A DNA stretch of 63,120 bases, filler included, from Sluysia triapertura (taxonomy: Eukaryota): assembly GCA_046118255.1 (NCBI GenBank). It is 5 parts of 5 records of this genome, joined end to end, with 100 filler letters (N's around TTAATTAATTAA, not from the genome) between each part and the next. Parts side by side here need not be neighbours in the genome. Positions count along the whole stretch, not along the records: positions 24,636 to 38,229 come from JBJNIA010030387.1; 4 more parts are not named here. One strand, 5' to 3'. Under the pieces are notes generated by a model. It was not told the DNA's origin, made no database searches, and saw nothing but the letters and a program-made list of their open reading frames with translations. The position numbers were made by a program, and so were the translations under genes. Of this stretch, positions 12,003 to 51,269 are shown one piece after another. Each line of letters starts with the position of its first letter. The first letter of the stretch is position 1.

Positions 12003-12300
12003 AATTATTCTAACATTCTCCATTTCATTTACAACCTAAACCATCACATCTTTTAAAACAAATTTAATACAACCTTAAAGATTTCATTAGTTCTCAATAT
12101 TTTTTAAACACTCTGATTGGGCCGGCAAAAAAAGAAACAATTGCAGTACTGACATACAATTAAAATTTTCAGAGTACAAGTAAAAATTATTTTTCAAAAA
12201 TTTTATCTCAAAAAGTTTCTGTCTAAACATTTTATTAACAAGAAATCAAAGAAATTATTAAAGTATTTGAAAGTTTAATGAAAATTCTTGATGACCAATA

Positions 12301-13451: not shown

Positions 13452-14134
13452 ACTTCGTCTACAAATGGTGCTTTCCAGTTTAAAGTGTTGCACATTGTTA
13501 CTCATTCATTCAACACTGTTCTATCAAACAATAGTGAAGATATGAAGCCATTTAATAATCAAGTAAATTTGAACATAAATTTTCTTTATAATTTTGATTT
13601 CCTTTATTACTTAGTTAGTCATAAATTTGTATATTCATGTAATTATCATTTAGTTAATGGACAACATAACTGGATCGTGAAAATGCAACAAGGGAAACTA
13701 TGCAGAAAGGAGATCAGAATCTCAAAAATAAAAAAAGTTATCAAATTATTATTAAAAACAAATTTTTATTTCAATGTTTTAGTCGCTTAATAAAATATTA
13801 TAACAGTTGTTTTAGATTTTTAAGTTATATTTTGAATATTAAGTTGTTGGACTTATTCCAAAACAAGACGTACAAATTTAAACTCAATTTCATCATATTA
13901 TTGAAAACATCGTATAACAATGATGAAACCAGGAAACTTCATAAAATCTCTAAGATTGATAAAGTTTAACATGTATTAAGTCTTAATAAAACATTTGTGA
14001 CTTTAATCCCAATTTTACATTTGTCCATGAGTGATCTTCATAGAAGTGAACTCAATCTAAAAACATGTACTTATCCAACAAGTTTATTACCTAATTATAT
14101 TACTCTTGCAATGAGTTCGAAATTAAAGCTCCAC

Positions 14135-17117: not shown

Positions 17118-20100
17118 TAATAGTTACTATAATATTAAATAATAAGTAATAATAATTAATAAATAAGCAACATTAATTTTCTGCCTGAATAATTTATTTT
17201 TCTGTTCTACCCAATCTTTAATTTAAATTAATTTTAATCGAGAATAACATTCTTAAATTTTGATTTTTACTCATTCTTATTTTAAGATGATTTTTGTCTA
17301 TTACAATCGTTACATTATTCTTTTTTACTCTGCTTAATCTTTAATTTAAGTTAACTTTGATCGAATATAATGTTATTAAATTTCGATTTCATATCACTAT
17401 TATTGATTCTTAATTTAAAGTGAATTATTGACTATAATAATAAGGATTGATGTTTATCAATTTTAATTTCATATTGTCTTTTAAAGTCTCATTTTAGAAT
17501 GATTATTTATACATGTAAAATTGATTCTTATTTGTTACAAAATTTTAAAATAACTAATTTTAAATTAAAAATGAATAAAATTTGAAAAATAAATGAATAT
17601 TTTGTTACAATAGTATAATTGATTAAAATAAAATAAAACTTGTTGCACATCATCGAAATGTACAGCTATGAAGTAAGAGATCCCTCATTTATTGAAGTCT
17701 AGTAGTACTAATTACACAGAATTTCTGTAAAGATTATCTATTAAGGAAGGAGAGTCAATTAAATAAATAATAATTAAGGGTTATAAATATTAATATAAAT
17801 TTTAAAAATAGAAATATTAATTTGCCAAATGAAATAATACTAATATACAAACACAAATTCAAAATTTTGTTTTTATTCGATTGAACAAACAAATGTGTTA
17901 AGTAAAATTAAAACTACATTATAAGATCATTGGAAAATTTTTAAATATATATATAAACTAAACGAAGCAGAAAAATAACTAATTATTATTTAAAAAATTA
18001 ATTATTGTATTATTAATAAGGTAGACTAATAAGACAATGGTTTTAATGAAGTATAACCTACTATTTTAATATGTACTTTTATTAGGATAAAAATATTTAA
18101 CAAAAATTAATTAAATATTTAACCCATTCGTATTACCAGCACGAATATACTCGTGATACTTTCAATATATTATAACGTACAATTAGTGGAACTTGCGAAC
18201 CTTTTATTGCCATGCAAACAATAATATACAAATGCAAAAACGTGAAAAAAAGTTACAAATAAATTGTTTTTACAAAAATTCTGCTTTATTTAAAAAGTAT
18301 GATATGATATGGTAGTGATACAGATGGCCCACAAAAACTCTATATTTGTTTTCTATTCTGGTTACTTAGTTACCATTTACTTTGGAAACAACTTTTCAAT
18401 ATAACGAGTGTTTAACTGTTCTGTTCGACTGTGATGCACGTTTTATAATACGCGAAGGACGTACTCACAGGATTTTTTGTGGACGCAATGCTCGTAGTGT
18501 TTTTTTAATAACTTCTTAGTTACTAATTTAGTCAAATTATTTTGATACCGAAGCTACTTTTCGATATACACTTATTTCTTTATCAATTGCTCTTTAGATA
18601 TTTTAATTTAAAAGGAACTTTATAAAATGCTTAATTAATGAATCAACAATTAATGAATCAAAATTTAATTACAAAATTGATTATTAATGAATCCAAATTT
18701 AAAACGAAAAGACTACGAAATGACTATCTATTCTTCCAAAAAATAAAAATATAATTTACACAAGAAATTATAATGATATATAGATAAATATAACAAGTTC
18801 ATGATTTCTCCTGGATAAAATAAAATTAGTATTTTAATTAAGATTTTGACTCAGATGAATGCTTGAGTTTCGAAAAAATGATTATTTTACGTTGATTTTA
18901 AGGCAAAATATTTATGCCAAAATCTTACAAAAAATATCATACTTATTCATTGAAATTCCAGATATTATTATTCTTCAAAAAATGAATGGTTCTGAAATCT
19001 TAGAATAGTAGATCACTTATGATTTCACTGGAGAACTTTTGCCAATCAATCTGATGGTGACAAATGATAATTAAATATTGACGACTTAAATAAAGTATTG
19101 ACAATTCCGAAAAAATCTGTACTGGTCACTTGAAAATTTTCCGAGAATAATCCTTGGCCGTTATTAACGTTGTGGTTGTCGTGTATGTCTTCGTTACAAT
19201 GCTAAGTCTTTTATACGATTTTTCACCAATGGTAATTAATTTGTTTATTTCAATGAATAATATTGATATTGAGTTTTATAAACGAATTAATGATTGATAT
19301 TAAAGTTTTTCCAAATAAATAAAGTTTTTCGTTTTAATAAGTGATGCAAATATTTATTTAAAGTTTTTCGATAAAATAAATAATGTTATTAAGTTTCCTT
19401 TAATAAATAATGTAAATTTTAAAGTCTAAAATCAATTAAAAGTTTTTTAAAATTAATTAAATTTATATTTTTTATAAGTTTGCTATTTTAATTAACATAT
19501 TTTATTTTGAATTAAACAAATTTAATTTACAAATTTACAAAAATTTTCGAATTCACATATTGAATTTACATATTTACATGAGAAAATCTGGCCTGTATAG
19601 AAGTCTACTTTAAATTTACGAAAACTGACAGAATTATTATTAATATTGTAGTCAAAATGGCGCATGCGAAATGGAAACATCGACTTAAGGTATTTACAAT
19701 TTTCAAAGCATATAATTCCGAGGTAATAATTTCGAATACCCAAATTAAATTCTGTCAGTTTATTCAAATTATTAACAAAACTTTTACTATCAAGTCTTTC
19801 AACTGAAACGACATACTTTGATGCTCCAATGATGTCTACAATACATATTTTAATTAGATAAAAAGTTCGTTTAATCGTTATACAATGATTTTGCCTCGAG
19901 AGTTATTTCTGATTCTTTTACGTTTAATAAAGTTATTATTCCTTCTAAATCTTTACGTAGATTAAATGAAGGTAGATAAATTTTAATTTAATGAATACAT
20001 TGCTCTTTGTATGTAAAACCGTTGTTGTTCTGATTTTTTGTTGCTATAATTCATCTTCAGTTATTCTACTAATTCCAATTCTGCTATTCAACATTGTTAT

Positions 20101-21599
20101 TCAATTTTAGATATACATTTTGTTACATGCAAAACTTATAGGGTAAAACGTGATTCGTAACATTATTTCTTTAAGAATTTTTATACTCCATATTTAATTA
20201 TATTTATTTATATTTAATTGTATTTAATTGTAACTCATAAACATTCAACAACCTTACATTTTAATCACACTCAAACATATTCATATAACTATCCATACAT
20301 CGTTTATTTTATACACTTAACTATCATTATCTTAACAAATAATACTATGATGACCACTATGTAATTTGTTGTTCAACCATTAGCCACTAGCTACTATCCA
20401 AATTATATTAAGATTAAAGTATTAATTGATTACATTTTCTAAACTTCAATGATGTTCTTTATGATTTGAAAGACCACGTTAACAAATTCCTCAAATAATT
20501 TAATGTAACTGTAAATAACATTATTTCAAATGATTCAAGATGTTATTGTGAAATTAAGAAATATGAAAATATGCTTTAAAACTAAATTAAAATATCTAGT
20601 TATGTGTTACTTAGTGAACGAATGTTTGAACCATACAAATACTAAAACTTTTCTAGAAAAATCAAGTGTACATTTATATTAATGACCATTTTCTGATAAT
20701 CTTCGATATGTGAAAGTTTTAAGTAAATCAAATGGTTGATCGAGCGCTCCTAAACCAATAAGTGCACAACTGTTTGTAGATACGTTTTATATATCAATAC
20801 AAAGGTTATACTAAGTGCATATTATTCAAAAGATGAAACTGACCTTTATATATTTCGAACAATCCAAATAAATATTGATGTTGGTAAATATTTATCATGT
20901 ACCAGTTATTCAGACTGAAATAAGTTTGAGCCGGCAGCTAGTACCAATATTTATTCAAATAAAGTGATAGTTATTACGTCGAAAAGTTAGTAGAACAGTT
21001 CATGACTTGACAATAAATACAAGACAAAACAGAAAGATTAAGCACTTCTAATAACAATAATAATAATAATAATGTAATGAATAATGAACGTACATACTTG
21101 TAAATAAATTATTGATTTATTCATTAGTATGTACAAATTATCGATTTTTAACTATTCATAATTTTTAATTTTTGTTTTTAATCAGATTAATTTTTGAATT
21201 AATATTATTTAATTCTTTTGGATTATTATAAACTAACATAAGCATTTATATTAATTATAAAATTTTAATATCTTTCAAAAACTTTTGTTATAATAAATTG
21301 AATAAAATATTTTGTTTCAATCTGGCTAAGGCCAGCTAAATCAACTATATATAGTTGAAAGTTTCAATAAACAATACACAATTTTCAAGCACAAGTTTGA
21401 AAGGCATAAATTTTTACAATTTTGGTTATCGATTCTTTATAACCCGTCCTCAGCGAAGTGACAAGAATAATCAAATTTGGCTAAAGACTTTCTGATAAAT
21501 TCATTCATTAAAATTTGGTCTAATAATACGCCAGTTTATTATATTAGGTTACGGATATATAATATTTAGATATTCACGCAAAATCAACGTAAAATCATT

Positions 21600-22198
21600 T
21601 TTGTAACTGTTTCTAAAAAGATCTTATAACAGATCTTTCGTAAAATTATTATTGAAATTTCATTGATTTAGAAATTAAAATTGATTAATTCCTAGTAATA
21701 TATTTATTTTATTCTATTTATAATTTTGTTTAATTTTACCCATTGTATAATAAAAATTTTTAAGAATTCATTCTTTCATTATTAAATTTCATAGTTTCAA
21801 TTATAAAATACCTCGTTGAGTAAAGTTTTCAACTATTAGAATTTAATTCTAATAATTCAAAAACATTTTTTATAGATCCTTTTCATAGGATCTTCGTAAA
21901 ATACTTTATAAATTATTTCTAATTTTACAGTTAAAAAATTGCCTTAATTATTCATAAACTTAATACTAAGTATAACTTATATTGATTTTCATTTATACCT
22001 CCAGAGCTTAACCTGAATTACTAAATAACAGAAAGGTTATTAAGCCAAGAATATCCTAAAAAGACCATGTTTTAGAAAGTTATTCTAACTTTTACTTCAA
22101 AATCTTTTATCTACAATCCGACGGCTAGCCCTAACTGGTAAGCCTAGTACGTTGGTGGACTCACGTTAAAATTCTACTTTATTCTAAGAATCGTCACA
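21600..22198 (-). mobile_element. LTR-like repeat, family L1 (5' end TGTGA at 22198)
   Basis: About 600 bp homologous (inverted) to 42908-43490. Shared core ttttaacgtgagtccaccaacgtact...ggctagccgt and acgaagatcctatgaaaaggatc. Both copies begin at TGTGA. Confidence 0.7.
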
Positions 22199-23193
22199 AT
22201 ATTATTATCTTTGTAAGGCTTAATTGTAAAATAGTTGTAAATATAAGTAAGGTCTTCTGTCTCTTAATGCGCTTAATCTGCAACTAAGACTTCCTAACCT
22301 TCTCACATTCACTTGATCATATGTGCACAGGTTTTTATACATACAAACACAAACAAGCTATTTCGATAATTGTCACTCGATCCAACCATGTTTTATTAAT
22401 GAAAAATCACTCATTCACAATTTTACAAAATAATAATAATTACTTATAATAATTAATCTATATTTAGAGATTTTATTGTAAAGGACGTTGTTAAAAGTAT
22501 AAAAGTGTAGTATAAAATTGTGAAGGAGTAAAAATAAAAATGAAACAGTGAATAATTCAATGTGAATTAAAAGTTTATTCTTATCAAATAAGTCTTGAAA
22601 CAATTTATTAAATATATTAAACAGCGTGAATAGAATATATTCATGCCGAGTTAAATTGTACATCTTAATTGACTTTAATCTCATTGGACAATTTGTTCAC
22701 CTGTAAATTATGTTTCTTACTAACTAATTAATCATGTCCATCATAATTTAAATAAATAATTGAAAATATAAATATCATAAAAATTATGTATTAAAACAAA
22801 ATAAATTTACATTTGCGTTGTATTATTTCTATGCTTATTTGACTAATTAATGATTGCACCAATGGAAATGATTTTATCTATCTCAGTTGTGTAAGTAAAC
22901 CCTTGTTTCCTATTTGATGCTAAATACTCCAAAATACACAAAACAAAAAATAAAATAAAATAAACAAAAATTTAATCCACAAATATTAATAATCTTTTTT
23001 TTGTATTTAGTAATTACTTTTTAGTTTACATTTTTGCATTAAATCATTTCTTTTATTCTCCTTAGAATTATTTGCATTGTGATGTAAAGAGGGCGTTTAA
23101 GAGTGATTAATCGTTTGAATTAAATCAGCAATACTTTATTATGGATACATTTCTGTCAAATGATTATAATTGATACACGAGAAACAATACTAT

Positions 23194-23344
23194 NNNNNNN
23201 NNNNNNNNNNNNNNNNNNNNNNNNNNNNNNNNNNNNNNNNNNNNNNNNNNNNNNNNNNNNNNNNNNNNNNNNNNNNNNNNNNNNNNNNNNNNNNNNNNNN
23301 NNNNNNNNNNNNNNNNNNNNNNNNNNNNNNNNNNNNNNNNNNNN
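23194..23344. other. Assembly gap (plain N run)
   Basis: Run of N without the TTAATTAATTAA linker. Confidence 0.95.
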
Positions 23345-23374
23345 CTTAAATCTAAACATAGAAAATAGAAAATT

Positions 23375-24219
23375 GAACAGGGTCCGGTTACGTCGTAAAG
23401 AGGGCACTTCTTCAACAATATAAGTTAAGTAAAACGTAATAACCTAAACTGGTAATTTAAATATGAGAGGGTCAAATTATAATGATTTACGGTTCAATTA
23501 TTATGTATCAAATAAAATCACAAAGGCCTATTAAAATTGTATTTCAAAATTACAACAATTAAGTGTATAAAATTGTTTATAAGATAAAAGATACAAAAAA
23601 CAGAAGGAACAAAAATTACAATAGTTTATTTTATCGTTAAAACTATCTTGAGCATTTAACTTATTTAATTGTGATTTTACTCTGCATTTTACTCAATCAA
23701 TATATCGGGGACCTTAAAATTGACTAAATGTAATATTAATTTAAGTAGATTTAATTAATTAACTTCCTTAAATAAAGTTAATATCAATGGACATAAAACT
23801 GAGGATCCACTTATATAATAATTTTCCAAAATTGAATTACGGTGACGATTGATAGATTAAAAATGATGATTTTCCTATAACTGCTTCACAATGATTTTTA
23901 AAATGATTTCAAAATGGCGATGTACAAATGGCGATTTTCATTGTTCTAGTCATCATCTAGAACATTTTGAAAGCTTCCATACTATTTTTAGTAGCTAATT
24001 TTCTTTTTCTTTAGAAATTTTATTTTCTTTTTTTGGAAAAATAATTTCTTTTTTGGAAAATAACTCCTTTTTAAGTAATTTTAAAGATTAATAATGGTTT
24101 TAAAAGATTTTCTATGATTTTAATTAATTTTTTGATAATTTTAAATATTTTAAAATAATTTTAAGCTGTTATTATGGCATCTTGAAATTATTTTGTAGGA
24201 TTGTGATGACAACCTAACA
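23375..24219 (-). mobile_element. LTR-like repeat, family L2 (TG...CA), copy 1
   Basis: The reverse complement aligns end to end with 50657-51220 (TGTTAGGTTGTCATCACAA...aatgaaaatcgccattt...taaccggaYcctgYtc..CA). No TSD seen. Confidence 0.65.
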
Positions 24220-24637
24220 CTACTATTACTAACTACTACTTCTATTACTACTATTACTACTTTGAAGTGTTAAAGTGTACTTATTCTAAAACTGATAATT
24301 TTGTTGCTATAACACGAGTTAGACAAAACCATTATATCTAAACATTATCTAAACCATTCTATCTACGAACGAGATAAAAACATTATACGGAATAATGCCG
24401 AGGGTAAATCATCGAAACATTTTAAAATATTGGAAGCAATTGAAAACAAAGATAATACTTGCTGGGTTCTTTTTTAACCTAAAAACTTACCTACAGCAAA
24501 ATAATTAATATTTATGAGTCCGTTTACAGTATACGNNNNNNNNNNNNNNNNNNNNNNNNNNNNNNNNNNNNNNNNNNNNTTAATTAATTAANNNNNNNNN
24601 NNNNNNNNNNNNNNNNNNNNNNNNNNNNNNNNNNNAC

Positions 24638-24824
24638 GAGTATTTAGATTTAATGTTTAATGCAGGAATGAAGGATAGAATTTTAGTAGGGATTAAAGTT
24701 ATGAATCATTTTTATGAGATTGTAAATAAAGAGAGAATTTTAGAAGTAGAGGTTTTTACGATGAACATTATTCCTGGTGGTACTACAGCAAAACCTTTCG
24801 TATTACACCACGGTGGTCGTAAAG
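24638..24824 (+). pseudogene. Degenerate lysyl-tRNA synthetase (class II, motif 1 region) fragment
   Basis: EYLDLMFNAGMKDRILVGIKVMNHFYEIVNKERILEVEVFTMNIIPGGTTAKPFVLHH is colinear with eukaryotic LysRS RYLDL..N...R..F..RSKII..IR.F....GFLEIETPMMNIIPGGA.AKPFITYH. The conserved ETP is lost. Truncated at the spacer. Confidence 0.8.
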
Positions 24825-25147
24825 GTATTATTTTTAATTCTACGTATTCACTCGCAAATATTTATTACGTTATTTCTTATATTTATAATTTCAGAATTAT
24901 ATGCAGCAAACGTGGAGCCACGAAAAAGGAGACACGGATAAAGGATAACAAAAGTGGTCTTAAAACTCGTTTTTTGTTATATAAGATAAAAATAAATATT
25001 TTAAATGTTGAATTACGTCCTTGTGTTTTAAATTTCGTTAAAGAGTACGAAGTTTCAGCAATCTTAAACCCTAAATTTCGTGTCTATATTTTCGACTTTA
25101 TTAACGTTCATGAATTTGTATTAATTTTAAGCAGAAGTAAGCGACTA

Positions 25148-26116
25148 ATGTCTTCTTCACGTACGAGTAGAACAATTCATATTAAAAGTATTACTATAAA
25201 GCAATATAAGAACTACTCAACAGGAGTTGAAAAGGAAAATTCAATTATGATAACTAGTGAATTAAATGATACTAAAATACAACACGAAATAGGTAAACCT
25301 CCTGATGAATTTTATGTAAAAGACAAAAGCGTTAGTGAAGATACACTAGAACGAAAACACAATGACGGCCTCATTACTCAAACACTATCACATTTAAGCA
25401 ATAGTTTTAGCTTTATAAAGGAACACTACAGGTCCACGAGTTGTTTACCTGACTTTGAAGTAGCTTCAATTCGTTTTGACAAAATAGTTATTTATCATCG
25501 TACCTTCGATATTGAACACGAAAAACTCGAACATACTCGAATATTGATTAAATCCACTAAAAATAAAGGTGTCAACAATAATATTCTAATTTATTCAAAA
25601 GCCCTCACTACAGGCGCTACTATTACTGTGGTTCATAAAAACTTTCTAACTACTTGGCAATCAATATTTTTAAACAGACTAGGTTTAATAACATATAATG
25701 TAAATCAAACACCCATAAATATCAATGGAACTCTATCATACTATATAGAAGTATTAGGACAATATGTACAAACTTTAGCAAATGTTTGGGATAATAACCC
25801 ATATGAATTAATACTGGGAATGGATGTTATCAACAAATTAGAAGATATGGTTATTCACAGCAAATATGGATTTATCAAAGTACCACCAGGTTCAAATATG
25901 ATTATACCGCAACTATTAGTTCCACAAGTTGGTGATGAATTAACCTTGTATCAAATGCCTATGTCGAATCCACCATTACAAGTTCCGGACTTACCATTAC
26001 TTGATATCGTCGAATCTACACTTCATTTGTCGATGTGCCTTGGGGATCACCATCAACACTTACATTTGAGGAGAATTCAGATTCAGGGATCAGTTCAGAC
26101 ATTCAGGATACAGTAA
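25148..26116 (+). CDS. Retropepsin-fold (retroviral aspartyl protease-like) protein lacking the catalytic Asp; part of ORF 24653-26116
   Basis: ALTTGATITVV (D-T-G motif reads T-T-G) and YELILGMDVINKL (ILG.D motif) at retropepsin spacing. The start at Met 25148 is inferred from an upstream acceptor. No RT follows. Confidence 0.65.
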   Translation: MSSSRTSRTIHIKSITIKQYKNYSTGVEKENSIMITSELNDTKIQHEIGKPPDEFYVKDKSVSEDTLERKHNDGLITQTLSHLSNSFSFIKEHYRSTSCLPDFEVASIRFDKIVIYHRTFDIEHEKLEHTRILIKSTKNKGVNNNILIYSKALTTGATITVVHKNFLTTWQSIFLNRLGLITYNVNQTPININGTLSYYIEVLGQYVQTLANVWDNNPYELILGMDVINKLEDMVIHSKYGFIKVPPGSNMIIPQLLVPQVGDELTLYQMPMSNPPLQVPDLPLLDIVESTLHLSMCLGDHHQHLHLRRIQIQGSVQTFRIQ

Positions 26117-26298
26117 TGATAATGACTAGTATAAAAAAGAAATAGTCTTAATAAAAATCGTTTTTGGAAAATAACTTATTGGTTTTCTATTTTAATTGTG
26201 ATTTTTCTATCACTTATAAATAATGTTATGGCAACAGAAACAGATGAAGAATATAAAAATATGAATATAGCTAAAAACATAGCAGGGAACAGAAAATA

Positions 26299-26649
26299 AT
26301 GATTACTGATATCTACAATCAATACTGGAAATTCGAATTTATTTCTAAGAAGATGTTTCTTCGACACAAATTCGAAATTTATTGTATTTATTTGAAGCCA
26401 GTACTAGTGGGAAAACCACATCATTCGAACGGTATCCCACACTGTCTACATTATGGTTATAGACCAATGTTAATATCTTTTACTCTTGACACTCCAAGAA
26501 ATACACGAGAAACCCAGAAATTTATTAAACAAATAGATCTATTACGATATGAAGAAACATCGAAAACACAAACAACCTTGTCTAATTATAATGCAACTAA
26601 GAAACAAATAAGTAACTTAAATAATTCAACTACAGAAGATACGACATGA
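26299..26649 (+). CDS. Hypothetical protein in the virus-like cassette
   Basis: 116-aa ORF. Its TGA overlaps the next ATG (ATGA at 26646-26649). Confidence 0.4.
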   Translation: MITDIYNQYWKFEFISKKMFLRHKFEIYCIYLKPVLVGKPHHSNGIPHCLHYGYRPMLISFTLDTPRNTRETQKFIKQIDLLRYEETSKTQTTLSNYNATKKQISNLNNSTTEDTT

Positions 26650-27387
26650 AACTCTTATAAATTCTTTACAATATTACTAATTTTTACATTACTACATATA
26701 TTTTGGACTATACTCTATTTGTACCAAGTAGGTAAGAAAATACGAGTTCCCACAAATAATAAAAACCTTATACCTTTAATTTACATTAAGATAATTACAG
26801 TAGTTCAATGTCACGAACAATCTTTTAAAACGGAATACTTTGAAATCTATAATAGAAACAATGAAGTAAAAGTTAAAATATTGAATGAAAATATTCATGC
26901 TAAATTTGCGTGTTTGAAACCTGCCAGACTTAATTTTAGCTCATGGGTTATACACGAAAATTATATTGATAGTGAATTGAAATATCCAGTCACGGTTTGC
27001 TCAGATATTTTACCTATCGAGGATAGACACATTATAGTGAGATTCCGTCACTCATCAAAATACTTGCATTTTGCATTTAAAGGAACAAGAAAACATTTAA
27101 CTATATTAGAGATATTACGAAACGATCCAGCTTTAGTGATATTAATTGTGGCGGCAATACTATTCGTAATAGCTTTAGCTATAGTGGTATTGACTATTAT
27201 TATGTTTGTCTCGAATAGATGTCGATACTCATGCTTACCACATAATAATAATAATGACGATGACGACGCATATGCAGTTCCATACAGAAGTAATTACGCT
27301 CCTCCTCCAGGTATGCCAATACTTCCACCTCCAATTTATGAATACGCTACAAATAATCAAATACCGCTCATATATGGAGATTGGCAA
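26646..27387 (+). CDS. Predicted membrane protein with a Tyr/Pro-rich cytoplasmic tail (probable 1-nt frameshift at the start)
   Basis: Hydrophobic N-terminus FFTILLIFTLLHIFWTILYL is in frame upstream of ORF 26719. TM segment ALVILIVAAILFVIALAIVVLTIIMFV, then tail DDDDAYAVPY...PPPIYEY. Confidence 0.55.
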
Positions 27388-28347
27388 ATGACTCAAGTTA
27401 AATCCACAATTTTAATATGTATTTACCTATCTTGTATATCAAGTGCGAATTATCAATCAGAAAACGCCACGCCTAAAATAATTTTAGTATCTACTCAAAA
27501 AGATGTCTATGCTAGAATATTCATAGGTAAAATTAAGCTATTTTCTGTTCAAATAAAATGTTGTATAATGGATTGGTGTGAAATTAAAACAAAGTCAAGT
27601 AAACAGGATTTCTACTGATTTATAGTTTGTATCGATCTTGCTAATTACCAACTAATTAGTGTAACAATAACCATGGAACTGGAGTATGATTCTCGAAGTG
27701 ACTCAAAAACTATTTTAATACGATACTACAAAATCAGAACCAAGCCATTTGTTTTTCAACAATCGCTGACACATAATACTAAGACAAAGTCAATTGAATT
27801 TCGAATGATCGTTTACCGTTACATTGGAAACGTCGTACGCATCCATAACCCACTACACGAAAATACATTATTGATTGCCTATGAATTAATTGATGGTTTA
27901 CGTTATGGACTGATATTGCCAAATGATACTATTCGTTTATATCACCTTCTCAATAATAAACTTATAAACTAAGAAAAGCGGAAATATAAAATATAAAAGG
28001 ATTTTGGCCAAACAATCAGGTATCATGATGTATAAATACCTGTTATAGATAAGTGCGAAAAGGACTCGGTTATAGAATCAATAAAAAGGCTTGAAAATTA
28101 TAATAATTCGGTAGTTACATCTCGTGTCATAATCAAAAATGTGAGTTTAAAAATTACAAATACTAATATAAGTTTAAGTAAAATCAATAAGGAATACCCA
28201 TCACTGACTAAATCCAACAATAATTTCATTATAATTAGTAATTATATCTTACTAATAGTCTTACTAATGACAATAACTATAAATTTTATCATCCCAAAAT
28301 TTTATCTATTTATAAGGCATAAAGCTCATTTTTTCATTATAATATAG
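27388..28347 (+). pseudogene. Broken type-I membrane glycoprotein-like ORF
   Basis: Signal-peptide-like MTQVKSTILICIYLSCISSA at 27388, continuing through ORF pieces 27673-27972 and 28141-28347. N-x-S/T sequons (NAT, NDT, NIS) and a C-terminal hydrophobic stretch YILLIVLLMTITINFII. Confidence 0.4.
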
Positions 28348-28594
28348 ATTAGGTATAGTACATAATTGACCATATGTAATGACTCTACCATTCAAATTGG
28401 GTCATATGCAATATCAAGACTGTAAGAACTGTGCAACTGACTGCATGTGATGGCTCGCCATCCATTTTGAGTCATGCACCAACTTAAAATTAATTAGGAT
28501 TTTTTTAAAAAGTTTTAGGTTTTTTAATTTAAATCGATAATATTACTTTAACTATTTATTGTCTTATTATATTTTATTTTTTTAGTAATACATC

Positions 28595-28972
28595 ATGTCG
28601 TTTTCCACCTGTGCCATTTGCCTCAGACCAATCCGCAAATACTATGCTCGAACAACGCCGTGTTTTCATCGCTTTCACTTTGTATGTCTATATAATCTCT
28701 TCAACACTTCTCCATCACCTTTACCTTCTTGCCCGTTATGTCGGATTACTATCGTTGCGTGCGATATTAATTATAAACGCGTCTTTAGGAAATCCTACGC
28801 ATTCACAGTTAAATATATTACCAACTCTTCAGAAGAAACAGGAATTGACATCTATCAACCTGTTGTACATAAAAAGAGAAACAATCTTAGTAGGAATGGT
28901 TTAGTTAGACCACCTCCGATCATGATTCCAAATTTAACTAAGTCTCAAAAGAGAAATAGACGGAGACTTTAA
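28595..28972 (+). CDS. Small RING-H2 finger protein (putative E3 ubiquitin ligase) with a basic tail
   Basis: CAIC-x13-C-F-H-RF-H-FV-C-x14-CPLC provides all eight C3H2C3 ligands. Intronless; ends KSQKRNRRRL. Confidence 0.85.
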   Translation: MSFSTCAICLRPIRKYYARTTPCFHRFHFVCLYNLFNTSPSPLPSCPLCRITIVACDINYKRVFRKSYAFTVKYITNSSEETGIDIYQPVVHKKRNNLSRNGLVRPPPIMIPNLTKSQKRNRRRL

Positions 28973-29161
28973 CTTAAACACTTTTATAAGACGCAGGAAG
29001 CTAATAAAAATAATAATATACCAAACCAATTAATCCTTTTCTGAAGAAAAAACGATAATTTCTTTAAAATAGTATATTTCAATTATAATGGGAATGAAAA
29101 TTATTATCTTACTTAATTTTGATTTGTTTTTATCTTGTATCATTTTTATGACTTCAGATTC

Positions 29162-30517
29162 ATGGAAGCAAAGATATTAAATCAACAGAAAAATTTTTAT
29201 GTTTTCGTTGATAGGTTTTGTCACGAGAACATCACCCCCGCCTTCTTTCCTAACTCTTTAGCTACTCCTAATAACTGGAAGTCGGAACTTAACATCAATC
29301 TCGCTACACATATCTTTGCCTTAACACCAGAACGGCCTCACATCTCATTAGACGATTTATCCAATGTTCCAGACTCTATGACGTCTTTGTATATAGTAGT
29401 GGCTCGTGGAGTTATTAAGCTCACTTTCCTCGATAACGGTGCTCCTCATTTGACGAGGATACACAGCTTTTCTTCACTTCATATAACATATCTTCATAAG
29501 AACAGTAACATCGTTATTGAAGCTGCAGAGTATCCCACTTCTCTCGCGTTGTTGTTCCCACTTCCTATAGTAGAGTATAAATCTTTCCTCCCAAATTTAT
29601 ATGAACAAAATTCGTTTAACTTAGAAGGCTGCAACAATGGCGTTTCGTTTACGTATGAACCTCCCTTGTCAGCTTATGATGAAGACCGTTTGGTCTTCAT
29701 GGCTTATTCATACGCATTTGACTTCCGCGATCAACCACACATCACTCAATTGTCTTGTGTTCCCTACCATAAACAATTTCATTCTGACGCCAACATCAAA
29801 CCACGTTTGCGCATAAAAACTTTGTTCGAGATATTCAGGATATTAAAGATGAACATATTAAGGAAGCGAAGGACATTGACGATATACGGCCTTACTTCCT
29901 GGGATATTTGCATGATAAAATTTTAGTAGCTCTAAACCCTACTCTTATCATCGAAACCTTGCGATTGCCTTTCGGTTGGCTTAAGGGTGTAATTAATTTA
30001 ACCAACCACAATCTCATCTCTTACAACACTACGAATTTGATTCTAAGGGGCCGACAGACTTTCCGCCTTCTCTACACAGTTCCGCCTAAAATGACATGCC
30101 CTCGCATGGCCCTCGAACTGGTTTCTCTTTTTGATCTAATCAGAACAAAGGACTTGTTTTTTATCCCAAATTGTTCTCCTCCCCCTCCTTCTCTTTTTTC
30201 TGACGTTCCCGTGACACCTAATCCCATCATCATCATCATCTATACAACCATCTATTGCACCATCATCATCATCGTTATCGACAACTGCTGATTGTGTACC
30301 TCATAAGTCTTCATCGTCATCATCCAATAATGATATTTTCGACCAAGTGGACAAATGGCTAGGCAGCTCATCACCCAGTCCAAACCACGTTCCAATTGGC
30401 ACTACAGCACGACGACACAAATCATTCCAATCCAAAAGCGATATACCTTTGTCATTGAAACCACGTCACAAACAATACTGTACGGATTTAAACGTTGATT
30501 TAACAAGAAAATTTTGA
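29162..30517 (+). pseudogene. Hypothetical protein of about 450 aa with two compensating frameshifts and a Ser-rich C-terminus
   Basis: ORF 29135-29926 overlaps ORF 29908-30291. The original frame reopens near 30225 (PSSSSSIQPS...DQVDKWLGSSSPSP...LTRKF*) and stops at 30517. GC is elevated throughout. Confidence 0.5.
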
Positions 30518-30764
30518 TATCTTCTGACTATTTTATTTCTGATATTATTTATTTATTTTATTTTATGATCGTGCTTTTCTTAAAGATTCGAGACGAATCT
30601 TCCCAGGTAGGGAAGTGTTTGTAAATAATAAAAATAATAAAATCTCTTTAAAAATATTTGTTAAAAAATAAAAATCTTTTAATAATTGTAAATAATAAAA
30701 AATATTTGTAAATAATAAAAATCTTTTAATATCTGTTAATAAAAAATCTTTTAATATATTTGTA

Positions 30765-31430
30765 AATAATAAGATAACATCTAAGATATCAGGAAACTTA
30801 TATTTCGAGTCAGTGTAATACAACAAACTATTTTCATTTTTTTCTAAATCATTTTTACTTTTGAATATATAAAAAGTTGAAGTAAAAGAAGTGAAGTAAA
30901 AATTCATCATGGGTCACATTACGTTCTTCTGCATGTTCATGTTCAATTTTACCATGATACCACTTTATATTTTTTAATATATTCTTAATTTCAGAATCAA
31001 TAATGTCGGATACTATCATCTTCATCTTCATGAAGTCCTTGATAACTAACAAATTTATCTAAAAAAGCATAATTTTCATATTCAACCGTAAAATCAGTTT
31101 TGTAATTATCATCGCGTTCATGTACTGTTTGATTGTTATGATTATTGTTGTTTCCATTCTTATAGTTGTTGTTACATGAATACATCTCCTTACAACTGGA
31201 GCTTACTAAGTTTGTCAAATGTTTTGAATCATAATTTCTTTAACAACTATCTCAATATCATCTTCAATGCATTCACGAATAGATTAATGATCTTCAGGAT
31301 CAGACACGATTATAATCCTTTGCAAAACAGGTGCGTCACTAGAAGTAGTAGTAGAAGCACGGACGTATTTTCGTTCATAATGATAATAAGGTGTCATATT
31401 AGTAAAATGATTATGAAATCGACACTTTGA
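30765..31430 (-). pseudogene. Decayed ORF with an SH2-like domain
   Basis: KWYHGKIEHEHAEERNVTHDEFLLHF, then after a frameshift SLLYYTDSKYKFPDILDVILLF. These match SH2 landmarks WYHG.I....AE, FLxR and YY.....F..L.ELI. Confidence 0.55.
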
Positions 31431-32139
31431 TTTTTTAATTATATTTAGCATTATTGTAATTTATTTCTCGTCTCTAACGGACTTTTATGATTCAAAAGTC
31501 GTCTTTTAATTTTTAATCACTTGAGACGTAATTTTCTAATTTTTTAATCTAGTTCTATTTTGTTAATAATTCTGATTGTATAACTTTTTTAATTGTGTCC
31601 TTTTTTTAAAACCATGAGTGTACAGGATTCACTCTAACTATGTTTGACTAATTAAAATAAAGTTGTTTCACATTCACTTTATTTGTAGCTTTTTAATTGT
31701 CCCTATTCTATTGGCTGAAAATAAATGTGCGCAATAAATGTATTATTTCACTAAGCAACTGTCATCAGTCGACAGCTGAGTTGATTTTAATTAAACTGTC
31801 GACTTTAACTTCTTTTAATTCTTTGTATTCTTAAAAGTTCTTTTTCTTGACATATAAGTAAATAAAATAAAATCATAACGCATAAACTTTATTCTTTTGA
31901 TTCTTGTAAATATAACTCTTTTCTTTCTTTATTCTTAAAAATCCTTCTACATGTAAAAACATTAATTTAAATAAAATTCTTTTTGGATTAGAATGTTTAG
32001 AATGGTTTTAAAGTGTGACTATTGTTTTTCAAAGATGTCGAATAATTCCATTTTTTGATTACGATGTTTTAAAGTGATTTTGAAATAAGGATTTAATGTT
32101 TGTGAATGATATTAATAATTGAGTGTTGAAGGATTGTAA

Positions 32140-32360
32140 ACTTAAAATGTTTTAGATAAGATTTGAAATGTACATTAATGGTTTTGAATGTAAGTATAAT
32201 TTTAATGTTCTGAGATTGTGAATTTAGAATGTTTTGAAATGTAAAAAGGTTTTAATAGATCTGAAAACGTAAAAACGCAAAATGAGAGTAAACGTGATAT
32301 TTCATGTAAAATACTGATTTGAATTTTAAATGAAAAGGTTGACAACCACATACTTGTTCA
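32140..32360 (-). repeat. Dispersed repeat module, copy 2 (see 4730-4940)
   Basis: Reverse-complement alignment to 4730-4940. Confidence 0.8.
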
Positions 32361-33582
32361 TGGAAAAAACTAGAAATCTAATTTGACTAAAAACAGAAAC
32401 TTGTCTTCTAAAAATTTAATTAATTTTTTTGTTTATTCTTCTACTAAAATTTCCTAAATTTATACTAAAATTCTCCATCTTACTTTATTAATTAATTTTT
32501 TGATCTGAAAAAACAAAAAATTATTCTTAAAACTAAAAATTAAAAATCCTAATTCTTAAATTAATAATTATTCAAAAATTAAAAAATGTTAATCTTAAAT
32601 TAATTATAATTTAAAATTAATTATAATTCATAAAATCATTTATACTTCATTTATACTTAAAATATAATTATTCATAATTACTCATAAAATAATTATTATA
32701 CCTTAATAAAATTGAAGAAACAAATGAAAATGAAAAATAATATTAACTTTGATTTGATTTAAATTTTTAAAAGAAAATGATTTAAGAAAAAATTTTTTAA
32801 TAAAAGTAATATGAAAATTTAAAATTTAATTTACTATTTTATTGTTGAAAGATTAATGAAAAAAGAATTGGCACAATGATTTATTTAAATATTTAATATT
32901 GAAAACAATTTAAAAAATTTTGAAAAGAGATATAAGTTTTGATGTTTTATATTTGAAGTCGATAGTGTTGAACAATGCACCAAATGGACGTTTATTGTGA
33001 ATCCTTTGATGGCACTAACAATATTAGATGTCATTATAGAGCTATGTTTTCAGTTTTTGTACAGTTTTTACTTATTACCAAAGGAGGAACTAAGTAATAT
33101 TTCGTAAAAGGAAACATAATCGAAATAAGGAAATTTGTAATAACTTTATATTGAATTTAGTGATTAATTATTGAGGTTTTGTTAAATAGATTAACCGATA
33201 TTAATTTGAAGTTATTATGAAGTACAAAGACGCAACAAAACTACAGCAATCAAAAGGCCTTAAGCCGAATTTCAATTTTTAATTTCGAGTTTCATAATGT
33301 TGTTTTTGATAACACTTTTAAAAGTTATAAAGGGTCTTAAGCCCATATTTTATAATTTTGAAAGTAAGATCTTTAAAAACAAAGTGAACGCTCAAACATA
33401 CCCTACCATTATAAGGAACTTACTGATTTCTTAATAATAATTATAGACGCCATTATAAAACTACATGCTATTGTGCAATATAATCAGAAAAAAAATGAAA
33501 CATCAATCACTACCAATAGATTTTTGTAGAACATGGAACAGAGTACAATGATTTAGCAGATTAATTTTTTTCACAGTAACAT

Positions 33583-33737
33583 AATTTGACTTTCCAGGAG
33601 AAAATGTTAAATTTATAAAGTTTTGGAAACCAAGTGACCCCTCCGCTCCTTTACGCGACATTCCTTCGCTATGGAGGCGAGAGTGAATACACTTGGTTAC
33701 CAGTAACTTTACATCACATCATTTTAAGGCCAAATTA
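33583..33737. repeat. Imperfect foldback with a GC-rich core
   Basis: AAAGTTTTGGAAACCAAGTG pairs with CACTTGGTTACCAGTAACTTT. Inner ctccgctcctttacgcga pairs with tcgctatggaggcgagag, and outer aatttgacttt with aaggccaaatt. Confidence 0.65.
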
Positions 33738-34327: not shown

Positions 34328-34505
34328 ATGGAGACAAATTATTTGATCATTGTTTTTGTCATTATTGTGCTATTTAACGATTATTGTGAAAGTTATTGTG
34401 TTGATCATAAAACCAAAATACAAACAAAATATGGACTTATTTGTGGAATTAGTGCCCAATTAAAATGGTCTGATATGCCAGATAATACCGTTCATATTTA
34501 TAAAG
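34328..34505 (+). CDS. First exon of a secreted type-B carboxylesterase/cholinesterase-family protein
   Basis: Signal peptide METNYLIIVFVIIVLFNDYCES, then IQTKYGLICG...VHIYKG, the family N-terminal motif preceding GIPYA. Donor G|GTTAGT at 34506. Later exons were not found in this segment. Confidence 0.7.
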
Positions 34506-35147
34506 GTTAGTTTATTACATTTTGACTAAAAATTGAATTTGAATCAAATAATTGTTTTAATCTAAATTTATTCTAGATATTTTTTGTAATGATTAGTTAA
34601 TTAAATTCAGTGTTTATTTAAAATATTACAATTAATTAAAGTTAAACATGTATTTTACAAAAATGACATTTCCAATAATTTAATTTATAAATTTGGAAAA
34701 CAATTTTTATATAATTTATATACATTTATATTAATACCATTTTTAAATTTTATGTGTTAATTTTAACTTAAAATCAAAATTTTGCATTTCTACATTAATT
34801 TATTTAGTTCTTTATTTGGGTTTCTTTCTGATTCTTATATTATTTTTATTGTTATAATTTTAATTATTTCTTAAAAATGTTTATGAAAATAATGCATTAA
34901 ATAAATGTGACTTTACTTATTTTATTTGGCTTTATTTCGGGGGCTCCAAAAAATATGCTTAGTTGGAGTTATCATAGATTACTGATTACATACAAAATTT
35001 GTGAGGGTTGCGTACATTACTATGTCTACTGTTTTCTAATTATTCACACGGAAAATATTCTTTTTTCAGTTTGCATCTTTTGATTTATAATGGTTTGGTA
35101 AAACTTATTCATAAAAAGATAAAGGAAAACCGTATTTTAACTTTATT

Positions 35148-35301
35148 TTAACTCATTACAGGCCGTCGAGAAGTAATACGTCATTTTTTATTCGAAATTC
35201 AGTAGCCGCTGACTTAGTAATACGTTTTTTGACAGAATAACTTTGTTTGTGTTTCCATCAAACAGTCGATTAAGAATTTTTAGCGGCCAGTGATGAGTTA
35301 A
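35148..35301. mobile_element. TTAA-flanked MITE family A copy 2
   Basis: TTAA-CTCATTACAGGCCG ... CGGCCAGTGATGAG-TTAA; inverted homolog of 1735-1888. Confidence 0.8.
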
Positions 35302-38229: not shown

Positions 38230-39072
38230 NNNNNNNNNNNNNNNNNNNNNNNNNNNNNNNNNNNNNNNNNNNNTTAATTAATTAANNNNNNNNNNNNNNN
38301 NNNNNNNNNNNNNNNNNNNNNNNNNNNNNTATATCTAATAAAAAATTAGATTTTACTGGTTTAATTTTAAAATTACGTTTATTGTTTAAAGGCTATAAGC
38401 CTATTTCGTTAAATTCTTTAATATTTAAAAGTTTTAATGTTTGGTCAATTAGTTTTATAACAATTAAAATTCTAATTACCTTGATAAGTTTGTTTAATTA
38501 TAAAATTTTATATTTTTAAAACCAAAAGTAAAAAAGCCCTCCAAAAAGTAAGTTGATTCATTGTGAGTGTTAACACCACAAGTAACCTTTGATGTAGGTT
38601 TCATTTGAAAAATGAAAACATATGAAGAATTATATACATATCATAATCTAAAAGTAATTTGCCTGTGTTATTTAATTATACAAAAAAACATTTTGGAATA
38701 AATTATTGCCCAACAGTACATAAAATTATTTCTATTAATTATTAATTTAATTATAATTTGATTATTAAAAGTATTTATATAATTTTTAACTTTTAATTCT
38801 TTTAGAAATTGATAGATTTTTAATTGTTTAGGTTATTCTAAATTAAGCTTTTGATGCATATAAATCCACATGTTTAAATATTTGTAATTAATAATTACCA
38901 TAGAAATGTAATGGATTATTTTTAAAATGTTTCTTATTTAATTATAATACGTAGTTCATGTAACCATTGCAATATATTGACATCATTTCATTGTATACTT
39001 TAAATTTTATTTCTAATTTAATTTTTAATTTATATTTATTCAAAATATGTATTAAAACAATCACTTATAATT

Positions 39073-40545
39073 ATGGAATATATTGTAGAAGCTATTAAAA
39101 GTAACAAAATAAACGATTTAGAAATACGTAATCAAAGCAGCATTTATGAATTCGATAAGTGTGGTCGTACTTTATTACACTGGGCAGCGTTTTATGGAAG
39201 ATGCGATATTTTAAAGATTTTACTTCAACGTGGATCCTTCATTCATGCGAAAAGCGAAAAAGATGATAATTTTACTGCAATTCATTTTGCAACAGTTAAC
39301 AACCACATACATTGTATTAAGTTATTAATTTTGCATGATAAGACTGTATTAGAGTCAAATGATGCTTTTAATCGTACACCTTTATCAGTCGGTGCTTTTT
39401 ACGGTCGTTTAACTGCTTGTTTATTTTTAATAATGTCTGGAGCTAACGTAAATAATCGAGATCTAAATGGTAATTCAATTTTGCATTTTGCTGTAATGAG
39501 TGGTAATGTACAACTTTGTAATTTGCTTATTTATTGTGGTTGCAATTTATCAATTTGTAACTTTTTCGGCGAATCTGTTCTTCATATTGCAGCTGCTAAA
39601 TCTAGCTCATTATTTTTAGTAAAAGAATTATTGCGACATGATTCTAATTTAATTTCTATTAAAGATAGTCGTAACTTTAATCCGACAATTTATGCGAAAA
39701 TGTGCGGTAATGTTGAAATTTATAATTTTTTAAACAAGTATCAAAGTAAAAGACAACAATTGCTTCATGAATCAGCCAGAATTAAGTTACCATTATATTT
39801 TTTATTGTTTTTCATTTTCGGTTTAGCAATACCTTATTACGTAATTTATATTTTACCACTGTCAATGTATGATTACAAATCAGTTCATTTGACACTTTAT
39901 GTTTTGTTTCACCTAATGCTTTTATCTTTATATTTAACTAATAGTACTAATCCTGGCTTCTTACCTCGAAATACTCGAGAATTTGATCAGGATTTGTCTA
40001 ACATTATTAATATAGATAAAGATGACGATATTAAAGTTATAAATTCTATTTCACGATTGTGTTTTATTTGTCGAACAGTTAAACCAACACGTACATCTCA
40101 CTGTGTATTTTGTGGTCGTTGTGTTTATCAACGAGATCATCATTGTCATTATTTAGCAAATTGTATCGCTTTTCAAAATAGACAGATGTTTTTACTATTT
40201 TTAGTAACAATTTGGTTTTGTGCTGTGATTGGCTATTACTTGATTTATATTTCAGTGTATTTTTATCAAATGCCATTCAGTGTGTGTTTAATTGTTATCC
40301 TTCTGATTAGTTTTTTGTTTTTTATTTTGTTAAATGTTGCCCTAATGAGTTTGTTTAGTGGAATGATAAAAAATTTGACTGCTGTTGAAAGTGTAAAGTG
40401 GAAAAAATATGACTATGATTATTTACGATTTCGAAATGGTAAATTTCATAATCCATATTCAAAAGGAATTTGGTTAAATATTTTGGCATTTTTTCGTTTG
40501 AAAATCTTACCTAAATTTAAATTTTTGCCTAAATTCGATATTTAA
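39073..40545 (+). CDS. ZDHHC17: Ankyrin-repeat DHHC palmitoyl S-acyltransferase (ZDHHC17/13, HIP14/Akr1-like)
   Basis: Ankyrin repeats (GRTLLHWAAFYG, TAIHFAT, RTPLSVGAFYG, GNSILHFAV, GESVLHIAA), TM helices, the DHHC cysteine-rich domain CFICRTVKPTRTSHCVFCGRCVYQRDHHCHYLANCI and C-terminal NPYSKG.WLN. Intact 490-aa single-exon ORF. Orthology to 17 versus 13 is not resolved. Confidence 0.93.
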   Translation: MEYIVEAIKSNKINDLEIRNQSSIYEFDKCGRTLLHWAAFYGRCDILKILLQRGSFIHAKSEKDDNFTAIHFATVNNHIHCIKLLILHDKTVLESNDAFNRTPLSVGAFYGRLTACLFLIMSGANVNNRDLNGNSILHFAVMSGNVQLCNLLIYCGCNLSICNFFGESVLHIAAAKSSSLFLVKELLRHDSNLISIKDSRNFNPTIYAKMCGNVEIYNFLNKYQSKRQQLLHESARIKLPLYFLLFFIFGLAIPYYVIYILPLSMYDYKSVHLTLYVLFHLMLLSLYLTNSTNPGFLPRNTREFDQDLSNIINIDKDDDIKVINSISRLCFICRTVKPTRTSHCVFCGRCVYQRDHHCHYLANCIAFQNRQMFLLFLVTIWFCAVIGYYLIYISVYFYQMPFSVCLIVILLISFLFFILLNVALMSLFSGMIKNLTAVESVKWKKYDYDYLRFRNGKFHNPYSKGIWLNILAFFRLKILPKFKFLPKFDI

Positions 40546-41655: not shown

Positions 41656-41947
41656 TACCGTAAAATCCCATGTATAGCCCTCTGCTTATCTAAGAAAATA
41701 TTTACTGGGACTTACACATGAGAATTTAAAACAGAAAAAAATAACTTTAGTTTTGAAAAGTGAAGTGTAACATAGTTTTTAAATAAAGATTTATAAAGTT
41801 AAAAAGAATCATTAAACTGATATATAAATGTATATCTAAATGATAAAAATTAAATTTCTGTTTCCATGGATAAGCCACAGCTTATCTAAAGAAAAACATC
41901 ATTTTAAAAAATTTATAAAGTGCGGCTTATACATGAGATTTAATATG
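41656..41947. mobile_element. Tc1/pogo-like MITE remnant
   Basis: TACCGTAAAATCCCATGTATAGCC ... GCGGCTTATACATGAGATTT inverted termini with an internal duplication of the terminal motif. Confidence 0.55.
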
Positions 41948-42022
41948 AAATTCGTATTGTTAGCATACACGCATAAAGTGCGCGTAGTACAATTGACTAT
42001 AGTAATCTAAAAATTGTTAGAC

Positions 42023-42053
42023 TGGCTGATAGCTCAGTGGGTAGAGCACAACT
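42023..42053 (+). ncRNA. 5' half of a tRNA-like sequence (A box / D arm)
   Basis: TGGCTGATAGCTCAGTGGGTAGAGCACAACT contains the D-stem GCTC/GAGC and A box TAGCTCAGTGG. Confidence 0.7.
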
Positions 42054-51220: not shown

Positions 51221-51269
51221 AAAACCACAGTAATGTAAATTTATTTTTGCATTTAATCGAAGTGTTAAG

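What the first reader, a model, noticed from the sequence alone, without database searches (positions are those of the whole stretch)
25148..30517. Virus-like gene cassette: pseudo-protease, membrane proteins, RING E3 and an unknown protein
Seen: about six same-strand, closely packed ORFs without coding introns over 5.4 kb, some joined by ATGA overlaps, in a genome whose WDR11 gene has kb-scale introns. They encode a retropepsin fold, a TM protein with a PPxY tail, a type-I glycoprotein-like ORF, a RING-H2 protein and an unknown protein of about 450 aa. No RT, integrase, pPolB or capsid is recognisable in the segment. Inference: this is the accessory or envelope region of a giant complex LTR retroelement or an endogenous virus. 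Giant Ty3/Gypsy elements with extra ORFs (Burro) are known in Schmidtea mediterranea, so novelty depends on that comparison.
Basis: partly seen in the sequence, partly recalled or inferred. Interest (0 to 1): 0.85.

Follow-up and report, generated by a model that had tools for sequence, protein, structure and literature searches.

The report
Decayed virus-like accessory gene block
A broken, intron-free, tightly packed block of genes, including an unexpected piece resembling lysyl-tRNA synthetase, is likely the membrane-protein and host-manipulation part of a large retrotransposon or integrated virus whose replication genes were not found beside it.

Summary
The block is real and starts earlier than reported. 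Plus-strand ORFs of at least 100 codons cover 90% of 24636-30517, against 1.5% in shuffles. Coding runs from an assembly gap at 24636 to 30517, with at least eight interruptions and no splice signals explaining them, so it is a decayed copy. In order: a diverged LysRS motif-1 fragment (new, E 3e-7) in frame with a retropepsin-like domain lacking its Asp; three signal/ectodomain/TM units, one with a PPxY tail; an intact RING-H2; and a ~450-aa protein containing a DnaQ-exonuclease-like segment (new, E ~1e-3) that seems to lack catalytic residues. The ATGA overlaps are no more than chance. No RT, integrase, pPolB, capsid or LTR was found, and the ORFs searched have no relatives. Best reading (0.55): an accessory module of a giant Ty3/Gypsy-like retroelement. 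A decayed gag-knuckle-SUMO-like element with a Burro-like layout lies elsewhere in the window. The block does not match Burro's published domain order, but no Burro sequence was available. Copy number, ends, host taxon and expression remain untested.

The parts
24536..24635 (.). Assembly gap (N44-linker-N44). The block's 5' part is cut off here.
24641..24814 (+). Diverged lysyl-tRNA synthetase fragment (linker plus motif 1 region), 21 of 58 residues identical to each of the two best LysRS structures (counted by eye from the alignments); the conserved E-T-P reads E-V-F. In frame with the rest of ORF1.
   Evidence: PDB phmmer E 3.2e-7; NCBIfam lysS E 8.9e-8, far below cut-off
24638..26116 (+). 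ORF1, 492 open codons, 5'-truncated: LysRS-like piece, ~250 aa unknown, retropepsin-like domain, Pro-rich linker. Coding signal leaves this frame near 26030.
   Evidence: (24815-25147 open in 0 of 2000 shuffles)
25574..25840 (+). Retropepsin-like (clan AA) domain; LTTGA (25604-25618) where the family has D-[TS]-G-A, and ILGMD at 25811-25825. No catalytic Asp.
   Evidence: Pfam PF13975 E 0.053; Atlas leads; motif read, family motif recalled
26122..26730 (+). Membrane unit A: hydrophobic signal-like segment 26162-26218, ~120-aa ectodomain with 2 Cys, Thr/Ser stalk with 3 sequons, TM 26665-26721. Interrupted by frame changes near 26140 and 26285 and a TGA at 26647.
26767..27387 (+). Membrane unit B: signal-like segment (by eye, below the hydropathy threshold), ~105-aa ectodomain with 2 Cys, TM 27133-27189, Cys- and Pro-rich cytoplasmic tail with PPIY (PPxY) at 27328.
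27388..28347 (+). Membrane unit C: signal-like N-terminus (by eye), ectodomain with 5 sequons, TM 28225-28281. TGA at 27616 and disrupted stretch 27970-28035.
28595..28972 (+). Intact 125-aa RING-H2 protein with a basic C-terminal tail.
   Evidence: Pfam PF13639 E 3.2e-9; PDB
29162..30517 (+). Protein U (~450 aa, frame changes near 29790 and 30215): N-terminal part with a cupin/double-stranded beta-helix hint (lead only), DnaQ-like segment, Ser/Pro-rich tail.
29830..30000 (+). DnaQ/DEDDh 3'-5' exonuclease-like segment up to Exo II; the Exo II Asp position holds a non-acidic residue.
   Evidence: NCBIfam TIGR00573 E 1.2e-3; PDB 2p1j E 1.2e-3; own profile best of 834 pieces, 15.8 bits
30566..31460 (-). 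Degraded convergent coding remnant with an SH2-like WYHG motif; membership in the element uncertain.
   Evidence: PDB RasGAP SH2 E 0.14, not significant; no Pfam hit

Best explanation
This is a decayed, 5'-truncated block of intronless genes that is likely the accessory module of a giant gene-capturing Ty3/Gypsy-like LTR retroelement, whose gag and pol would lie beyond the assembly gap or have been deleted. Shown: coding density, domain order, interruptions, and embedding in a contig with host repeats. Inferred working of the intact element: a long cytosolic polyprotein carried captured domains, including the LysRS-derived piece, ahead of a retropepsin-like domain. That domain is inactive here; whether by selection or by decay cannot be told from one copy. 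Three type-I membrane proteins, released by signal peptidase or translated separately, would reach the cell surface. The PPxY tail would recruit NEDD4-type ligases and ESCRT for budding or turnover, which would support particle egress or cell-to-cell spread without a classical fusogen. The RING-H2 protein would act as an E3 ligase on host defence proteins. Protein U would bind nucleic acid through a dead DnaQ-like fold as a decoy or regulator. This copy most likely no longer makes most of these products; only the RING ORF is whole.
For: Coding 90% vs 1.5% in shuffles. No splice signals at 9 of 9 breaks, while the host-like ZDHHC ORF of 1470 nt is intact, so decay is local. Retropepsin-like domain (37, 61), a fold typical of LTR elements (established knowledge). 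The contig shares two dispersed repeats with other contigs of the window (32144-32344 with 4738-4937, 82%; 35148-35301 with 1735-1888, 88%), so the block is integrated. The two halves differ in GC3 (0.23 vs 0.37, p 3e-8), as expected for modular capture. A separate decayed element at 60337-62795 has gag-like, CCHC-knuckle, charged and SUMO-like parts (weak hits E 0.016 and 0.2), the layout described for Burro's N-terminus (PMC6431247 section 7). LTR elements are known to capture TM ORFs and DEDD exonucleases (PMC5408684 passages) and RING/ubiquitin domains (PMC6431247, PMC13465017).
Against: No RT, RNase H, integrase, gag or LTR at the block. No polypurine run of 11 or more in 30517-33700. No sequence shared with the gag-like element or its upstream DNA. 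In canonical pol the protease is followed by dUTPase/RT, not by membrane proteins. Retropepsin support is below every cut-off. No relatives were found for ORF1, the U N-terminus or in contig scans. Multi-copy status is untested. Several dead enzyme folds plus a RING and glycoproteins are equally typical of large DNA viruses.
Confidence: 0.55

Rival explanations
1. Fragment of an endogenised large DNA virus or giant DNA transposon-virus (herpes-, nima-, nudi- or Polinton-like) of an unsampled lineage; the block is its glycoprotein and immune-evasion region.
For: Stand-alone N-terminal RING with a basic tail, several small type-I glycoproteins, inactive enzyme folds and no detectable relatives are common in large DNA viruses (recalled). 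A DUF3587 hit, a family recalled as viral, lies elsewhere in the window (13086-13448, E 3.2e-4, below cut-off).
Against: No pPolB, capsid, packaging ATPase or terminase hit. All genes are on one strand, and the retropepsin fold points to reverse-transcribing elements. 0 relatives in 4 viral-contig scans.
Confidence: 0.25
2. A cluster of host-derived intronless pseudogenes or retrocopies (or a fast-evolving lineage-specific operon) that decayed in place.
For: The host-like ZDHHC gene nearby is also intronless. LysRS, RING-H2, DnaQ-like and SH2-like pieces all have cellular relatives. Host proteins are very divergent, so a lack of relatives is weak evidence.
Against: A 3.7-kb near-continuous coding run joining LysRS-like, retropepsin-like and three membrane units has no host counterpart known to me. 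The LysRS piece keeps its hydrophobic pattern without stops at 36% identity, unlike a simple decaying retrocopy.
Confidence: 0.12
3. The element is intact or the DNA is foreign, and the breaks are assembly or sequencing errors in a draft assembly.
For: Gapped draft assembly; one break sits at an A run; raw reads were not examined.
Against: Two breaks are in-frame TGA codons rather than indels. ORF1 (1476 nt) and ZDHHC (1470 nt) are uninterrupted. The contig carries host repeats.
Confidence: 0.08

Closest known systems
Burro / GYPSM1 giant Ty3/Gypsy elements of planarians (PMC6431247 section 7, read whole; Grohme 2018 and Lee 2026 not held)
   Same: Large intronless coding region with captured host domains ahead of a retropepsin, membrane-protein coding, ubiquitin-related domains; decayed copies are reported in one dugesiid. 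A Burro-like gag-knuckle-SUMO layout occurs elsewhere in this window.
   Different: Burro order is gag ... BCL2 - env - PR - dUTPase - RT - RH - IN in one ~4,900-aa ORF with an F-like Env before PR. Here the membrane units follow PR, are small, and no pol follows. LysRS-like and DnaQ-like parts are not among the domains the review lists; BIR, BCL2, MATH and ankyrin are not in the block.
Env-carrying Ty3/Gypsy errantiviruses of metazoans (PMC13524379, passages)
   Same: Signal peptide, glycosylated ectodomain and TM anchor near retroelement-type genes.
   Different: Known Env are F-type or gB-type multi-domain fusogens, in GAG-ENV-POL order in flatworms. Units A-C have ectodomains of about 105-270 aa with few Cys and no Pfam fusogen hit.
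Bdelloid rotifer LTR elements and Terminons with extra TM and DEDDy ORFs (PMC5408684, passages)
   Same: Short TM ORFs and DEDD-family exonuclease ORFs as accessory genes.
   Different: There the exonuclease is DEDDy/RNase D-like with intact catalytic residues and usually one ORF3. Here it is DnaQ-like, apparently dead, within a multi-gene block.
HIV-1 recruitment of host LysRS (PMC8955326, passages)
   Same: The motif 1 dimerisation helix of LysRS is needed for its packaging, a non-enzymatic role in tRNA-Lys primer loading; the captured piece spans motif 1.
   Different: HIV borrows the host enzyme; here a LysRS-derived segment is encoded in the element's own frame. Function untested.

Membership tests
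Burro (giant Ty3/Gypsy) | PR followed by dUTPase-RT-RNase H-integrase in one ORF | tested here: not met
   PR-like domain is followed by a linker and membrane units; no RT/RH/IN hit
Burro (giant Ty3/Gypsy) | F-like Env in frame upstream of PR | tested here: not met
   No hydrophobic segment in the 492 codons of ORF1; sequence further upstream is lost in the gap
Burro (giant Ty3/Gypsy) | Flanking LTRs, PBS/PPT, many copies | tested here: inconclusive
   No direct repeat around the block within the window, no purine tract; 5' end in a gap; no genome held
Burro (giant Ty3/Gypsy) | Sequence homology to Burro ORFs | not testable with these tools
   No Burro sequence obtained; primary papers not held
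Errantivirus Env (F or gB type) | Large multi-domain ectodomain with conserved Cys bridges and fusion peptide or loops | tested here: not met
   Small ectodomains, no family hit with X read-through; no fold was attempted for these units
Retropepsin (clan AA) | Fold and motifs | tested here: inconclusive
   Pfam E 0.053 over model 16-91 of 92 (37); Atlas 0.82-0.84 (61); no PDB retropepsin hit; single-sequence fold failed
Retropepsin (clan AA) | Catalytic D-[TS]-G | tested here: not met
   LTTGA at 25604-25618
RING-H2 E3 ligase | C3H2C3 zinc ligands | tested here: met
   All eight present; PF13639 37.4 bits over cut-off 27.3
DEDDh/DnaQ exonuclease | Fold homology | tested here: inconclusive
   E ~1e-3 in three searches, but only profile positions 57-94 of 180 matched; Exo I and III not recovered by the profile
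DEDDh/DnaQ exonuclease | D-E-D-D-h catalytic residues | tested here: not met
   Forced alignment puts non-acidic residues at Exo I D, Exo I E and Exo II D; Exo III unreliable; Exo II also
Lysyl-tRNA synthetase | Complete catalytic domain with motifs 1-3 | tested here: not met
   Only 58 residues match; similarity ends at residue 59-60 (14, 84)
Polinton/Maverick or large dsDNA virus | pPolB, capsid, packaging ATPase, TIRs | tested here: not met
   No hit in the block or in the window pieces scanned; truncation limits the test

The most novel reading that the evidence does not exclude
A new lineage of giant retrovirus-like elements whose polyprotein carries its own LysRS-derived module to dimerise with host LysRS or load the tRNA-Lys primer, and which spreads by three small glycoproteins unrelated to known Env fusogens, with a RING E3 and a dead nuclease as anti-defence genes.
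Probability: 0.15. Interest if true: 0.85.

Novelty: new variant of a known kind. Interest (0 to 1): 0.55.

Why it matters
Giant retroelements blur the line between transposons and viruses, and their accessory genes are mostly undescribed. A synthetase-derived segment in frame with a retropepsin, three non-canonical membrane proteins and dead enzyme folds would add new cargo types and a testable route to primer recruitment and Env-independent spread. Two full-text searches found no report of a retroelement encoding a tRNA-synthetase piece, but the library lacks most subscription papers and Repbase. The value is limited by having one truncated, decayed copy.

Tried and rejected
Homology: ORF1 25148-26113 gave 0 of 429 candidates. 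The 1.84-billion representative search gave 2 hits, both summed over repeats (36 and 4 stretches; a CopC-labelled repeat protein and a Tritrichomonas repeat protein) and rejected. U N-terminus vs longer proteins: 0 of 470. Contig scans: 4 viral and 2 metagenome, all empty. PHROGs: nothing better than E 0.024 for 9 pieces. Units A-C, the RING ORF and the LysRS-adjacent region were not run through the two large protein searches. Phage and plasmid tblastn of the DnaQ-like piece: none, and one chance hit at E 6. Folds: two single-sequence AlphaFold2 models failed (pLDDT 30 and 40), so no fold search was run. Homodimer job: no verdict. Units A, B and C show no mutual similarity. TGA-as-Trp was considered and rejected because the Trp codons checked by eye in these frames are TGG. 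Introns at the breaks were rejected. A possible donor/acceptor pair after the LysRS piece gives no in-frame intron (by eye). No Rfam family in 19000-33700 and no tRNA in 1-33700. Placing the host by its ZDHHC protein failed (0 of 1149 at a too strict E 1e-20). Earlier-finding look-ups were empty. Papers seen: PMC6431247 (abstract, passages, section 7 whole); PMC5408684, PMC13524379, PMC13465017, PMC13238120, PMC8532177, PMC8955326 (passages); PMC11952523 (abstract and outline). No supplements were read; Burro ORF maps in unseen papers and supplements could lower the novelty.
Full report
Setting. The window is AT-rich (most 1-kb bins 18-30% GC) draft eukaryotic DNA with five gaps. It holds host-like genes (an intronless ankyrin-DHHC ORF at 39022-40545 and one WDR11-like exon) and decayed mobile DNA. 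No whole genome is held. The host is inferred to be an invertebrate animal; a planarian is a guess from the Burro-like gag layout, not a result, and the one attempt to place it failed.

Is the block real? Yes. Plus-strand ORFs of at least 100 codons cover 90.2% of 24636-30517, against a mean of 1.5% and a maximum of 13.6% in 300 shuffles; the longest ORF is 492 codons against a maximum of 167. A codon model, trained partly on the block's own ORFs with the scored window held out, follows coding almost continuously from the contig edge to about 28345, then in the RING ORF and in 29162-30517. It changes frame near 26030, 26140, 26285, 29790 and 30215; TGA codons interrupt the frame at 26647 and 27616, and 27970-28035 is disrupted. 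Some of these may be true gene ends. None of 9 break sites has a donor-acceptor pair. ATGA occurs 44 times in 5880 nt, so the reported overlaps carry no weight.

ORF1. Its first 58 residues match lysyl-tRNA synthetases (PDB E 3.2e-7; NCBIfam E 8.9e-8), at 21 of 58 identities to each of the two best hits by my count, with the motif-1 E-T-P altered and no similarity beyond. The 111 codons that follow are open in 0 of 2000 shuffles and score as coding, so a fusion is favoured over chance abutment. Near 25574-25840 lies a retropepsin-like domain: Pfam PF13975 E 0.053, Atlas neighbours all of that clan at 0.82-0.84, a lead only, LTTGA in place of the catalytic motif. No PDB retropepsin was hit and the fold failed. 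One copy cannot separate an evolved pseudo-protease from decay. The 25148-26113 protein has no true relative in either large protein search.

Membrane units. Hydropathy gives helices at 26162-26218, 26665-26721, 27133-27189 and 28225-28281; two more signal-like segments are seen by eye only. This yields three units of signal, small ectodomain and TM anchor, with 3, 1 and 5 sequons and a PPIY motif in the tail of unit B. Unit B has no in-frame ATG of its own, which suggests signal-peptidase processing of a polyprotein, though a lost start is possible. The units match no family and not each other, and are much smaller than the F- and gB-type Env described for metazoan Ty3/Gypsy elements (PMC13524379, passages).

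RING and protein U. The 125-aa RING-H2 ORF is whole. In U, the segment 29830-30000 resembles DnaQ/PolC-type exonucleases: NCBIfam E 1.0e-3 and 1.2e-3, below cut-offs, PDB 2p1j E 1.2e-3, and best of 834 window pieces with a profile of 9 DnaQ-family proteins (15.8 bits; the X-read protein scored 15.0 against a maximum of 5.3 in 500 shuffles). Only profile positions 57-94 of 180 match. A forced alignment finds no acidic residue at three catalytic positions and is unreliable at Exo III. The cupin hint for U's N-terminus is a lead only (0.83-0.85, low recognition). GC3 is 0.23 in the 5' block, 0.37 in RING plus U and 0.19 in ZDHHC, which suggests separately acquired modules.

Boundaries. The 5' end is lost in the gap. 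Downstream are a degraded minus-strand remnant with an SH2-like motif (not significant), AT-rich DNA, dispersed repeats shared with other contigs and a probable host exon at 34328-34510. No LTR-like direct repeat or purine tract was found. Among 159 window pieces of at least 55 aa none hit RT, integrase, pPolB or capsid families; a weak RT hit (E 0.097) belongs to a separate non-LTR remnant on the next contig. Copy number and expression are open.

Mechanism and comparison. The best-supported reading (0.55) is an accessory module of a giant Ty3/Gypsy-like element: surface proteins with a late-domain-type motif for egress or cell-to-cell spread, an E3 ligase and a dead nuclease against host defence, and captured domains ahead of the protease. 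All functions are inferred. Precedents exist for each kind of capture: Burro (PMC6431247 section 7; PMC13465017 passages), rotifer TM and DEDDy ORFs (PMC5408684 passages), and short TM proteins enabling Env-independent spread (PMC11952523 abstract). The block works like such a module but fails Burro's domain order and cannot be filed as Burro; sequence comparison was not possible. A large DNA virus remnant (0.25), host pseudogenes (0.12) and artefact (0.08) remain. The LysRS piece is the most surprising part: it spans motif 1, which HIV-1 needs to package host LysRS with its primer tRNA (PMC8955326 passages). Two searches found no report of such a capture, within the library's limits.

Verdict. 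New variant of a known kind; interest 0.55; novel case probability 0.15, interest 0.85.

Noticed in passing
window 60337-62795 (+): Decayed element with a gag-like ORF (DUF4939 E 0.016), a frame-broken CCHC knuckle near 61510-61570, a charged low-complexity region and a SUMO-like piece (PF11976 E 0.2), resembling the described Burro N-terminus.
   Followed up: partly
window 12295-13790 (+): Dense, interrupted ORF cluster just after a gap, with weak CAP (E 0.023) and DUF3587 (E 3.2e-4) hits; possibly a second decayed virus-like block.
   Followed up: no
window 41800-46400 (+): Degraded non-LTR retrotransposon (RT-like motifs, CCHC and restriction-like endonuclease motifs by eye; RVT_1 E 0.097), split by other DNA.
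   Followed up: partly
window 39076-40545 (+): Intact intronless ankyrin-DHHC palmitoyltransferase (ZDHHC17-like), very divergent.
   Followed up: partly
window 6003-6969 (+): Interrupted coding stretch ending in an Unkempt-like CCCH zinc finger (E 3.9e-6).
   Followed up: no
window 34328-34510 (+): Probable first exon of a secreted carboxylesterase-like host gene (signal-like start, GT donor; family resemblance by eye and recalled, no Pfam support).
   Followed up: partly
window 21626-22186 / 42924-43459; 4738-4937 / 32144-32344; 1735-1888 / 35148-35301; 24023-24220 / 50656-50821: Dispersed non-coding repeat families, 71-88% identical, in inverted orientation.
   Followed up: no
window 50851-51925 (+): Weak HTH hits including the Mos1 transposase HTH (E 0.013), suggesting a decayed mariner-like transposon.
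   Followed up: no
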